The notes beneath the pieces are model-generated. The model had not been told where the DNA came from. It made no database searches and saw only the letters and a program-made list of their open reading frames with translations. The translations under genes and the position numbers were made by a program. Positions 30,024 to 31,034 of a DNA stretch of 64,000 nucleotides are shown here, piece after piece (position 1 is the first letter of the stretch; each line of letters starts with the position of its first letter). Source of the DNA: Escherichia coli (GTDB lineage: Bacteria > Pseudomonadota > Gammaproteobacteria > Enterobacterales > Enterobacteriaceae); assembly GCF_016903815.1 (NCBI RefSeq), contig NZ_CP069973.1. One strand, 5' to 3'.

Positions 30024-30117
30024 GCTCGCTTTAAAACATATCATGAAACTGGGTATGTTTTCTCTGCCTGCTCTGGGATCGCCGGGGCGGGCATTTTTTT
30101 GCATGAGACATAACGAA

Positions 30118-30612
30118 CTATTTAAGACATTCCTGCAAATCAGCCAATGTTGCCATCAGTATCATAGAATCGACAGGCGATGGTTCAAACCCCACTCGCA
30201 GATAAAACTCACGGGCCTGGTCTGATAACGCATGGACCAACATTCCGCGAATACCAATGACTTCAGCCGCCTGTAGTACTCGTAGACCGGCATCTCTGAC
30301 CATCGCACGACCGATGCCCTGACCCTGTAATGATTTATCTATTGCCAGACGACCAAGTACTACAACAGGGATCGGTTCTGGCATATTTCGGCGAAATCGT
30401 CCTGTCGCGACATACGTTTCAACGGCGCTGGAAGCAAGCGAATAATATGCCAAAACGTTGCTATACGTATCACAGCTAACAAATGTACGTGATGCGCCGG
30501 CAAGCTGATTTTTTAGGGCTCTCTGCTTTAGCCAGTTATCCATCGTTTCTACTCCCGAGCAAAAAGAGGTGAATTGATGCCTTGCCATGAGTGGCTCGGG
30601 GGCCTGAATCAT
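30118..30612 (-). CDS. GNAT-family acetyltransferase toxin of a type II toxin-antitoxin pair (TacT/AtaT/ItaT/KacT-like)
   Basis: 164-aa protein (169 aa if the upstream ATG at 30627 is used) with GNAT acetyl-CoA motif [20 protein letters not shown]; ATGA start/stop overlap with the upstream DUF1778 gene; not part of the K-12 gene order as I recall it. Confidence 0.8.
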
Positions 30613-30902
30613 TTTTTTTGCTCCCACGGCGCGGGTGTTTGCATGGTTTTGCGTAATGCAGCATTGGGCGCGGGGGGCTGATCCAGACGATTCAAAAATA
30701 GCTGGTAATCATCAGAATCGATCCTGAAAATTCTCTGCTCAATGAGCGCCTCTTCAGCTGCGGCTCTGGCGGCCTCAAGGACAAATTCGGTGCGATTTTT
30801 TCCTCGGGCTTTAGCGGCCCGGTCAATAAGATCGCGTTCTGCGGGTTTTATGCGCAAATTTAAAGATTCGCGCCTGGTTGGAATGTTATTGGCTGCTGGC
30901 AT
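30609..30902 (-). CDS. DUF1778 / ribbon-helix-helix antitoxin (TacA/AtaR/KacA-like)
   Basis: 97-aa protein from ATG 30902 ([56 protein letters not shown]...); alternative in-frame start at 30947 falls inside the predicted promoter. Confidence 0.8.
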
Positions 30903-30933
30903 AAATATATCCTTCGGCTTTGCATGGATGATA

Positions 30934-30963
30934 ATTATACAGCGCATGTAACGCTAATGTCAT
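30934..30963 (-). promoter_or_regulatory. Candidate sigma-70 promoter of the antitoxin-toxin operon
   Basis: Minus strand: -35 ATGACA, 18-bp spacer, consensus -10 TATAAT; palindrome ATAATTAT overlaps the -10 and could be an autoregulatory operator. Confidence 0.45.
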
Positions 30964-30994
30964 TACAACAAAGATGCTACCCTGAAATAAAAAA

Positions 30995-31014
30995 GCCCTG
31001 GCAGTTACCAGGGC
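30995..31014 (-). terminator. Rho-independent terminator of rne
   Basis: gccctgg-cagtta-ccagggc hairpin followed on the minus strand by TTTTTT, about 20 bp past the rne stop. Confidence 0.7.
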
Positions 31015-31034
31015 TTGATTACTTGAGCTAATTA

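What the first reader, a model, noticed from the sequence alone, without database searches (positions are those of the whole stretch)
30024..31034. GNAT toxin / DUF1778 antitoxin pair inserted between flgL and rne
Two overlapping minus-strand ORFs fill the space between the flgL stop (30023) and the rne terminator and stop (31035). The upstream ORF (97 aa from ATG 30902) has the hallmarks of DUF1778/RHH antitoxins (…[42 protein letters not shown]…). The downstream ORF (164 to 169 aa) is a GNAT acetyltransferase with the acetyl-CoA motif [20 protein letters not shown], like the aminoacyl-tRNA-acetylating toxins TacT, AtaT, ItaT and KacT. The antitoxin stop and toxin start overlap as ATGA (30609..30612), which suggests translational coupling. 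Every other long ORF in the window is an E. coli core gene, and as I recall K-12 has only a short spacer between flgL and rne, so this looks like a strain-variable insertion of about 0.8 kb. The family is described; what is open is which aminoacyl-tRNA this member acetylates and whether the pair is active at this site beside the flagellar and RNase E genes.
Basis: partly seen in the sequence, partly recalled or inferred. Interest (0 to 1): 0.75.

Follow-up and report, generated by a model that had tools for sequence, protein, structure and literature searches.

The report
TacAT2-like toxin-antitoxin cassette in E. coli
Between the flagellar gene flgL and the RNase E gene, this E. coli strain carries a compact two-gene toxin-antitoxin cassette closely related to Salmonella TacA2/TacT2. 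It is an ordinary, already annotated member of a well-studied family, present in about one in eight sequenced E. coli.

Summary
Two overlapping minus-strand genes lie between flgL and rne: a 97-aa DUF1778/TacA antitoxin (30609..30902) and a 164-aa GNAT toxin (30118..30612), joined by an ATGA overlap.

- **Closest solved relatives:** Salmonella TacT2 and TacA2 (PDB 7AK7), at 74% and 81% identity. The toxin keeps K29, R88 and catalytic Y137.
- **Regulation:** a near-consensus promoter (ATGACA-18-TATAAT) is overlapped by a palindrome (GTAATGACA-N3-TGTCATTAC type). The same palindrome sits upstream of related antitoxin genes across Proteobacteria, so it is probably the antitoxin's operator.
- **Distribution:** the 880-bp block is in 686 of 5,426 complete E. 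coli genomes, always chromosomal and single-copy, and at this site in 684.
- **Origin:** K-12 has 63 bp there instead. E. albertii shares that 63-bp spacer, and E. fergusonii and Citrobacter koseri are also empty, so the cassette is a derived insertion. A cryptic Escherichia clade carries it at the same site with lower synonymous divergence than the flanks, which suggests spread by recombination.
- **Selection:** both genes are under purifying selection (dN/dS about 0.12).
- **Likely target:** Gly-tRNAGly, by homology with TacT2.

This is a routine new member of a known family. Interest is low.

The parts
29070..30023 (+). flgL (flagellar hook-associated protein 3). Left flank, core gene, not part of the cassette.
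   Evidence: ORF; RefSeq annotation.
30065..30103 (+). flgL intrinsic terminator (12-bp stem with G-U pairs, then T7). Conserved in K-12. It marks the left edge of the variable block.
   Evidence: the alignment with K-12 is identical up to 30102.
30103..30982 (.). Strain-variable block of 880 bp, replaced by 63 bp in K-12. The cassette proper is about 30103..30969. Bases 30970..30975 (TCTTTG on the minus strand) are shared with K-12, and 30976..30983 is a separate 8-bp indel next to the rne terminator.
   Evidence: 686/5426 genomes.
30118..30612 (-). GNAT toxin gene (164 aa), a TacT2 homologue. K29, R88 and Y137 are intact, and the acetyl-CoA motif is [18 protein letters not shown].
   Evidence: residue roles from PMC5959882.
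30609..30902 (-). DUF1778/TacA ribbon-helix-helix antitoxin gene (97 aa), a TacA2 homologue.
30609..30625 (-). Antitoxin stop / toxin start overlap ATGA (30612..30609). It is preceded by an A8 run and a GGGAG Shine-Dalgarno for the toxin (30625..30621) inside the antitoxin gene.
   Evidence: Read directly. The same 4-bp overlap occurs in the Escherichia sp. E4385 and Salmonella loci.
30910..30914 (-). Shine-Dalgarno AAGGA for the antitoxin, 7 nt before ATG 30902.
   Evidence: Read directly; conserved AGGA in the alignment.
30934..30963 (-). Sigma-70 promoter ATGACA-18-TATAAT (11 of 12 matches).
   Evidence: conserved in the Salmonella tacAT2 promoter region.
30947..30967 (-). Probable antitoxin operator: imperfect palindrome TGTAATGACAttaGCGTTACA overlapping the -35 box.
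   Evidence: Family-wide palindrome GTAATGACA-N3-TGTCATTAC at the same distance from the antitoxin ATG. Paired change TGTAA/TTACA (E. coli) versus CGTAA/TTACG (Salmonella).
30993..31016 (-). rne intrinsic terminator. Conserved in K-12. It marks the right edge of the variable region.
31035..34220 (-). rne (RNase E). Right flank, core gene, not part of the cassette.

Best explanation
This is a chromosomal type II toxin-antitoxin cassette of the GNAT/DUF1778 (TacAT) family. Its closest characterised relative is Salmonella TacA2-TacT2.

**Expression (inferred from sequence).** One promoter, ATGACA-18-TATAAT, drives a bicistronic mRNA. The antitoxin is translated first. The toxin start overlaps the antitoxin stop (ATGA) and has its own GGGAG ribosome-binding site.

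**Neutralisation and regulation (inferred from homology).** The antitoxin's N-terminal ribbon-helix-helix dimer would bind the palindrome over the -35 box and repress the operon. Its C-terminal part would wrap and block the toxin, as in the 7AK7 complex.

**Toxic action (inferred from TacT2).** When free, the toxin dimer would use acetyl-CoA to acetylate the alpha-amino group of charged tRNA, most likely Gly-tRNAGly. This stalls elongation at Gly codons and arrests growth reversibly. Peptidyl-tRNA hydrolase can undo the damage.

**Origin (shown by comparison).** The cassette is about 0.87 kb: promoter, two genes and 15 bp of 3' tail, with no recombinase. It replaced about 60 bp of ancestral spacer exactly between the flgL and rne terminators in a subset of Escherichia. 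It has since been kept under purifying selection.

**Basis of each step.**
- Shown: gene structure, family membership, conserved catalytic residues, distribution, and polarity of the indel.
- Inferred from homology: toxicity, neutralisation, Gly-tRNAGly target, autoregulation.
For: - **Structure:**
- **Family:** Pfam GNAT and TacA1 at 1.5e-26.
- **Closest solved relatives:** the best PDB hits are both chains of one complex, 7AK7 (toxin 7.7e-76, antitoxin 1.2e-45), at 74% and 81% identity without gaps. 7AK7_A is TacT2 by residue count: K29, R88, and F at position 137, the Y137F mutant described in PMC5959882.
- **Key residues:** the window protein has K29 (the active S. Enteritidis allele), R88 and Y137.
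- **Target of the relative:** TacT2 acetylates Gly-tRNAGly almost exclusively in vivo (PMC9177977).
- **Regulation:** promoter with 11 of 12 matches. The operator palindrome is conserved in at least 12 related loci from alpha-, beta- and gamma-proteobacteria, with a paired change between E. coli and Salmonella.
- **Selection:** dN/dS is 0.12 for both genes against Escherichia sp. E4385.
- **Integrity:** 685 of 686 carriers have the full-length block and 673 are at least 99% identical.
- **Polarity:** empty outgroups and a shared ancestral spacer.
Against: - Nothing here tests toxicity, neutralisation or substrate. At 74% identity specificity could differ, and TacT2 showed Gly plus Ile/Leu bias in vitro (PMC5959882).
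- The right half of the operator palindrome is degenerate in E. coli (6 of 9 to the family consensus), so repression strength is unknown.
- The curated NCBIfam library gave no hit to either protein. RefSeq naming therefore rests on Pfam-level or other evidence.
- No terminator follows the toxin on the minus strand, so the transcript's 3' end is undefined.
Confidence: 0.88

Rival explanations
1. The pair is ancestral to Escherichia at this site and was lost from most E. coli. The empty site would be the derived state, not the occupied one.
For: A cryptic-clade Escherichia (sp. E4385) has the pair at the same site. A collinear alignment of the K-12 63-bp filler to the module scores slightly above shuffles (2.4% of shuffles reach it).
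Against: E. albertii, E. fergusonii and C. koseri are all empty. The E. albertii spacer is homologous to the K-12 filler. The filler has no local similarity to the module. Module dS between E. coli and E4385 (0.15-0.20) is two to four times lower than that of the flanks (0.38-0.71).
Confidence: 0.07
2. The cassette is an attenuated or inactive relic. The toxin would no longer arrest growth at native levels, as reported for TacT2 of S. Typhimurium (E29).
For: Chromosomal TA modules are often weak or silent. The operator right arm is degenerate. Some public assemblies contain fused or N-terminally truncated versions (P0001, P0004, P0006).
Against: The window protein carries K29, not the attenuating E29, plus R88 and Y137. 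dN/dS is 0.12 in both genes. 673 of 686 copies are at least 99% identical and full length.
Confidence: 0.1
3. The toxin is active but has a different or broader aminoacyl-tRNA preference than Gly-tRNAGly, for example Ile/Leu as in ItaT or several hydrophobic residues as in AtaT.
For: In vitro, TacT2 acetylated several species with a bias to Gly and Ile/Leu. 26% of residues differ from TacT2.
Against: All five tested members of the TacT/TacT2/TacT3/GmvT clade were almost exclusively Gly-specific in vivo. The window toxin is far closer to TacT2 and TacT (e-76, e-44) than to AtaT or KacT (about e-17 to e-20).
Confidence: 0.15
4. It is an ordinary metabolic or detoxifying GNAT acetyltransferase with a transcription factor, not a toxin-antitoxin pair.
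For: Pfam GNAT hits alone are generic. NCBIfam and PADLOC give no specific hit.
Against: Both proteins match both chains of a solved TA complex end to end. The DUF1778 partner, the 4-bp overlap and the conserved toxin-specific residues are all present.
Confidence: 0.02

Closest known systems
Salmonella enterica TacA2-TacT2 (PDB 7AK7; Rycroft et al. 2018, PMC5959882)
   Same: Same gene order, sizes (97 aa and 162-164 aa) and 4-bp overlap. 74% (toxin) and 81% (antitoxin) identity without gaps. K29, R88 and Y137 are conserved. The promoter and operator core are alignable at nucleotide level.
   Different: The genomic site differs. The Salmonella copies sit near AraC/GerE/Fic genes or PAP2/DsbD genes, not between flgL and rne. 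So this is a homologous cassette, not a positional orthologue. The E. coli copy has not been tested experimentally.
Salmonella TacA-TacT (PDB 5FVJ, 7AK8, 7F36/7F37)
   Same: Same family and architecture; toxin E-value about 4e-44. Acetylates Gly-tRNAGly in vivo.
   Different: More distant than TacT2. TacT and TacT2 are 46.8% identical according to PMC5959882.
E. coli AtaR-AtaT (O157:H7), Klebsiella KacA-KacT, Salmonella TacA3-TacT3 (PDB 6AJM, 5ZGN, 6G96)
   Same: GNAT toxin plus DUF1778 antitoxin. Same chemistry: N-acetylation of aminoacyl-tRNA.
   Different: Only distant sequence similarity (E 1e-15 to 4e-20). AtaT and KacT belong to a basal clade with broad specificity. O157:H7 lacks the cassette at this site.
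Related chromosomal and plasmid GNAT/DUF1778 cassettes across Proteobacteria
   Same: 60-79% toxin identity in Kluyvera, Leclercia, Citrobacter, Klebsiella, Rhizobium, Methylobacterium, Rhodocyclaceae and others. Same operator palindrome upstream.
   Different: Unrelated genomic contexts, which shows that the cassette moves horizontally.

Membership tests
GNAT/DUF1778 (TacAT-AtaRT-KacAT) type II toxin-antitoxin systems | The toxin is a small GNAT-fold acetyltransferase with an acetyl-CoA binding motif. | tested here: met
   Pfam Acetyltransf_7/10/1. Full-length matches to solved GNAT toxins.
GNAT/DUF1778 (TacAT-AtaRT-KacAT) type II toxin-antitoxin systems | The antitoxin is a DUF1778/TacA ribbon-helix-helix protein. 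| tested here: met
   Pfam TacA1 PF08681 at 1.5e-26. Matches TacA2, KacA and AtaR.
GNAT/DUF1778 (TacAT-AtaRT-KacAT) type II toxin-antitoxin systems | Bicistronic operon with the antitoxin first and the genes adjacent or overlapping. | tested here: met
   ATGA overlap at 30609..30612 and a single upstream promoter.
GNAT/DUF1778 (TacAT-AtaRT-KacAT) type II toxin-antitoxin systems | Catalytic tyrosine and positively charged tRNA-binding residues are present (Y137, R88, K29 in TacT2 numbering). | tested here: met
   Ungapped alignment to 7AK7_A. Residue roles from PMC5959882.
GNAT/DUF1778 (TacAT-AtaRT-KacAT) type II toxin-antitoxin systems | Operator palindrome in the promoter for autoregulation by the antitoxin or the complex. 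| tested here: inconclusive
   The palindrome over the -35 box is conserved family-wide. Binding was not tested, and the right arm is degenerate in E. coli.
GNAT/DUF1778 (TacAT-AtaRT-KacAT) type II toxin-antitoxin systems | Toxin expression arrests growth and the cognate antitoxin neutralises it. | not testable with these tools
   Needs an expression experiment.
GNAT/DUF1778 (TacAT-AtaRT-KacAT) type II toxin-antitoxin systems | The toxin N-acetylates the aminoacyl moiety of charged tRNA. | not testable with these tools
   Needs LC/MS or a 14C-acetyl-CoA assay. Inferred from TacT2.
TacAT2 subgroup (Gly-tRNAGly-specific clade D of Bikmetov et al. 2022) | Closest characterised relative is TacT2/TacA2, for both partners. 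| tested here: met
   Both top PDB hits are chains of 7AK7; 74% and 81% identity.
TacAT2 subgroup (Gly-tRNAGly-specific clade D of Bikmetov et al. 2022) | Same chromosomal position as Salmonella tacAT2 (positional orthology). | tested here: not met
   The Salmonella copies lie in other contexts. S. bongori has MFS and LysR genes between flgL and rne.
Known anti-phage defence systems (PADLOC-DB 2.0) | Either protein matches a defence-system model. | tested here: not met
   No hits at E <= 0.01.

The most novel reading that the evidence does not exclude
Because the cassette has no terminator of its own and points into the 3' end of flgL, and sits immediately downstream of the rne terminator, its transcription might couple to its neighbours. 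Read-through from rne could feed the TA operon, and TA transcripts could run antisense into flgL. Toxin-antitoxin state would then be linked to RNase E expression or to flagellar assembly in carrier lineages. Alternatively the cassette could act as an unrecognised abortive-infection defence.
Probability: 0.05. Interest if true: 0.5.

Novelty: new member of a known kind. Interest (0 to 1): 0.2.

Why it matters
The practical value is modest.

- It gives E. coli a TacT2-type, probably Gly-tRNAGly-specific, toxin, in addition to the AtaT, AtaT2 and ItaT toxins already studied in other strains. About 13% of complete genomes carry it, possibly including multidrug-resistant clinical lineages: an identical copy is in WCHEC4533, a strain analysed in a comparative study centred on ST405, though its own sequence type was not confirmed.
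- It could contribute to antibiotic tolerance, as reported for the Salmonella Tac toxins. It could also be a convenient lineage marker.
- The locus is a clean natural example of a minimal TA cassette (promoter/operator plus two genes, no recombinase). It landed precisely between two terminators and then spread by homologous recombination.
- The family-wide operator palindrome is a usable prediction for TacA DNA binding.

None of this changes current understanding of the family.

Tried and rejected
1. **HS-02 'remnant'.** Strain HS-02 appeared to hold a decayed toxin remnant (annotated pseudogene). On reading the DNA it is homopolymer-rich assembly junk of about the right length. It is an assembly artefact, not evidence of decay.
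2. **K-12 filler as a scar.** I tested whether the K-12 63-bp filler is a scar of the cassette. The local alignment score was below the shuffle mean, and the collinear score only marginal, with 2.4% of shuffles reaching it. The idea was rejected once E. albertii was found to share the filler.
3. **Species-representative genome scan.** The genome-contig scan with the toxin used peptide words that missed Salmonella and Escherichia. It returned 49 loci, mostly alpha- and beta-proteobacteria. These were useful for the operator comparison but not for synteny.
4. **Curated libraries.** NCBIfam and PADLOC gave no hits. Rfam gave only chance-level matches.
5. **'Plasmid' copies.** The two 100%-identical records are 0.73 and 4.9 Mb and are evidently chromosomal sequence filed as plasmid.
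6. **Phylogroup of carriers.** This could not be established. The reference strain UMN026 (NC_011751.1) is not in the collection. The literature only places the identical-copy strain WCHEC4533 in a comparative set of genomes related to an ST405 isolate, 18 of which were ST405.
7. **Literature.** Searches for the locus (flgL + rne + DUF1778; the WP accessions; tacAT/GNAT-RHH + E. coli + phylogroup) found no paper describing it.
8. **Salmonella upstream region.** ARAGORN found no tRNA next to the Salmonella copy, despite a T-arm-like string.

Full report
**Observation**

The window has flgL at 29070..30023 (+) and rne at 31035..34220 (-). Two overlapping minus-strand ORFs lie between them.
- A 97-aa ORF runs from ATG 30902 to TGA 30611..30609.
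- A 164-aa ORF runs from ATG 30612 to TAG 30120..30118. It would be 169 aa from an upstream GTG at 30627.
- The stop and start overlap as ATGA at 30609..30612. This overlap is preceded by an A8 run and a GGGAG ribosome-binding site at 30625..30621.

RefSeq annotates exactly these two genes in E. coli strain 7/2, which is 100% identical over 2.1 kb. They are listed as a GNAT family N-acetyltransferase (WP_000613626.1) and a DUF1778 or TacA-family antitoxin (WP_001110447.1).

**What the proteins are**

- The toxin matches Pfam GNAT families Acetyltransf_7, _10 and _1.
- The antitoxin matches Pfam TacA1/DUF1778 at 1.5e-26.
- Against solved structures, both proteins hit the two chains of one entry, 7AK7, best: toxin 7.7e-76 and antitoxin 1.2e-45. 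Identities are 74% and 81% with no gaps.

7AK7 chain A can be identified as Salmonella TacT2. Counted from its native Met it has K29, R88 and Phe at 137. PMC5959882 describes TacT2 of S. Enteritidis with K29, the essential R88, and the catalytic Y137F mutant. The same paper assigns 5FVJ to TacT and 6G96 to TacT3. Those hit the window toxin at 4e-44 and 2e-15 respectively, and KacT and AtaT at 1e-15 to 4e-20.

The window toxin keeps three key residues. K29 is the active allele; E29 in S. Typhimurium weakens the enzyme. It also keeps R88 and Y137.

**Regulatory anatomy**

- A promoter, ATGACA-18-TATAAT (11 of 12 matches), lies at 30963..30934 on the minus strand.
- An AAGGA ribosome-binding site lies 7 nt before the antitoxin ATG.
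- The promoter core aligns at nucleotide level with the region upstream of Salmonella tacA2-like genes. Similarity begins only a few bases upstream of the -35 box.

I took the 90 bp upstream of the antitoxin gene in 25 related loci from alpha-, beta- and gamma-proteobacteria. A palindrome of the form GTAATGACA-N3-TGTCATTAC recurs in them at about the same distance from the start codon. It is perfect or nearly so in, for example, L034, L016, L013, L007, L024, L018 and L029.

The window version, TGTAATGACAttaGCGTTACA (30967..30947), overlaps the -35 hexamer. Its right arm is degenerate. E. coli has TGTAA...TTACA where Salmonella has CGTAA...TTACG, a paired change that keeps the symmetry. This is the expected operator for a ribbon-helix-helix antitoxin. 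Binding itself is inferred, not shown.

No terminator follows the toxin on the minus strand. The flgL terminator relies on G-U pairs and works only on the plus strand.

**Distribution and polarity of the indel**

- The 880-bp block (30103..30982) is present in 686 of 5,426 complete E. coli genomes. It is always chromosomal and single-copy.
- 685 copies are full length and 673 are at least 99% identical.
- 684 genomes cover the query that includes both flanks, so the site is constant.
- K-12 derivatives, BL21, O157:H7 and ST131 lack it.
- K-12 has a 195-bp spacer in which 63 bp take the place of the 880 bp.

Closer reading of the right junction puts the cassette edge at about 30969. On the minus strand the window reads TTATTTCA[GGGTAGCA]TCTTTG|TTGTAATG, and K-12 reads TTATTTCATCTTTG|AATCAACA. 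The cassette edge therefore lies just outside the operator, and a separate 8-bp indel sits beside the rne terminator. On the left, only 15 bp separate the toxin stop from the flgL terminator tail.

Outgroups settle the polarity.
- E. albertii (197-bp spacer), E. fergusonii (147 bp) and Citrobacter koseri (162 bp) are empty.
- The E. albertii spacer is homologous to the K-12 63-bp filler.
- The filler has no significant local similarity to the cassette.

The empty site is therefore ancestral. The cassette replaced about 57-63 bp of spacer.

**Later history**

Escherichia sp. E4385, a cryptic-clade isolate, has the pair at the same site.

| Region (window vs E4385) | Nucleotide identity | dS |
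|---|---|---|
| Toxin | 93.5% | 0.20 |
| Antitoxin | 95.6% | 0.15 |
| rne 3' part | 91.0% | 0.38 |
| flgL | 89.7% | 0.58 |
| flgK | 86.3% | 0.71 |

A block of raised identity (92-96%) runs from about 29700 to 30920. This fits one acquisition followed by spread between lineages through homologous recombination in the flanks. The signal is noisy, so I rate this moderately likely.

dN/dS is 0.12 for both genes, which indicates that both proteins are maintained by selection.

Related cassettes at 60-79% protein identity occur in unrelated contexts in many Enterobacterales and other Proteobacteria, and on plasmids. This fits a horizontally mobile module.

**Mechanism**

By homology with TacT2 and its relatives, the free toxin should acetylate the alpha-amino group of aminoacyl-tRNA and block elongation. 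The antitoxin would neutralise it by direct binding and repress the operon. Peptidyl-tRNA hydrolase would reverse the damage (PMC5959882).

TacT, TacT2, TacT3, GmvT and two further clade-D toxins acetylated Gly-tRNAGly almost exclusively in vivo (PMC9177977). In vitro, TacT2 showed a bias to Gly and Ile/Leu. Gly-tRNAGly is therefore the best prediction, with a probability of about 0.7.

**Comparison and novelty**

The cassette meets every sequence-level criterion of the GNAT/DUF1778 family and is nearest to TacAT2. It is not a positional orthologue, because the Salmonella copies lie elsewhere.

It has no PADLOC or NCBIfam hit and no significant Rfam match. I found no paper describing this E. 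coli locus.

It is a new, uncharacterised member of a well-known kind, already annotated as such in RefSeq.

**Verdict**

1. The closest relative is TacAT2.
2. The event was a replacement of about 60 bp of ancestral spacer.
3. The likely target is Gly-tRNAGly.

Interest is low, at about 0.2.

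Noticed in passing
L064 and L065 (Salmonella bongori), 3455..5828: In S. bongori the flgL-rne spacer holds an MFS transporter gene and a divergent LysR regulator gene (about 2.3 kb). 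The same intergenic site has therefore accepted different cargo in different enteric lineages, which makes it a small integration hotspot.
   Followed up: no
L004 (E. coli HS-02, NZ_CP172818.1) 2140..2700: The cassette region in this 'complete' genome is replaced by homopolymer-rich nonsense of about the right length, and RefSeq calls a partial GNAT pseudogene there. This looks like a long-read assembly or polishing artefact, not biology. Its left junction also lacks the 15 bp ATGAGACATAACGAA found in other carriers.
   Followed up: partly
window 30609..30630; proteins P0001, P0004: Two 260-aa antitoxin-toxin fusion proteins occur in single public read-assemblies. They arise from frameshifts in short homopolymer runs near the gene overlap (the A8 run, and G and C runs). 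They could be sequencing errors or rare slippage variants.
   Followed up: partly
protein P0006 (cluster of 189 member sequences): A 141-aa version of the toxin starts at Met24 and carries S41L. It forms a sizeable cluster in read-assemblies. It might mark a sub-lineage with a disrupted toxin 5' end, or be a gene-calling effect. It would bear on whether some carriers have inactivated the toxin.
   Followed up: no
window 30024..30117 (minus strand): No intrinsic terminator follows the toxin gene on its own strand (fold z-score -1.05). The flgL terminator depends on G-U pairs and should work only for flgL. Cassette transcripts may therefore run antisense into the 3' end of flgL.
   Followed up: partly
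window about 29700..30920 versus L054: Identity to Escherichia sp. E4385 rises to 92-96% across the last 300 bp of flgL plus the cassette, against 83-90% on either side. This looks like a recombination tract that carried the cassette between lineages.
   Followed up: partly
window 30976..30983: An 8-bp indel (GGGTAGCA on the minus strand) lies between the rne terminator and the cassette, relative to K-12. E. albertii has a partly similar TACC-TGAAAT at this point, so this may be older spacer variation independent of the cassette.
   Followed up: no
PLSDB records CP088669.1 (730 kb) and NZ_CP141089.1 (4.9 Mb): These records are filed as E. coli plasmids and carry a 100% identical cassette. Given their sizes, they are almost certainly chromosomal sequence mislabelled as plasmid.
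   Followed up: no
L055 about 2590..2640 and L058 about 527..577 (Salmonella): Immediately upstream of the Salmonella tacA2-like promoter is a string resembling a tRNA T-arm and 3' end (GGTTCGATACTCCGGTTCGATTCC). ARAGORN finds no tRNA there. It may be a leftover attachment site from the element that delivered that copy.
   Followed up: partly
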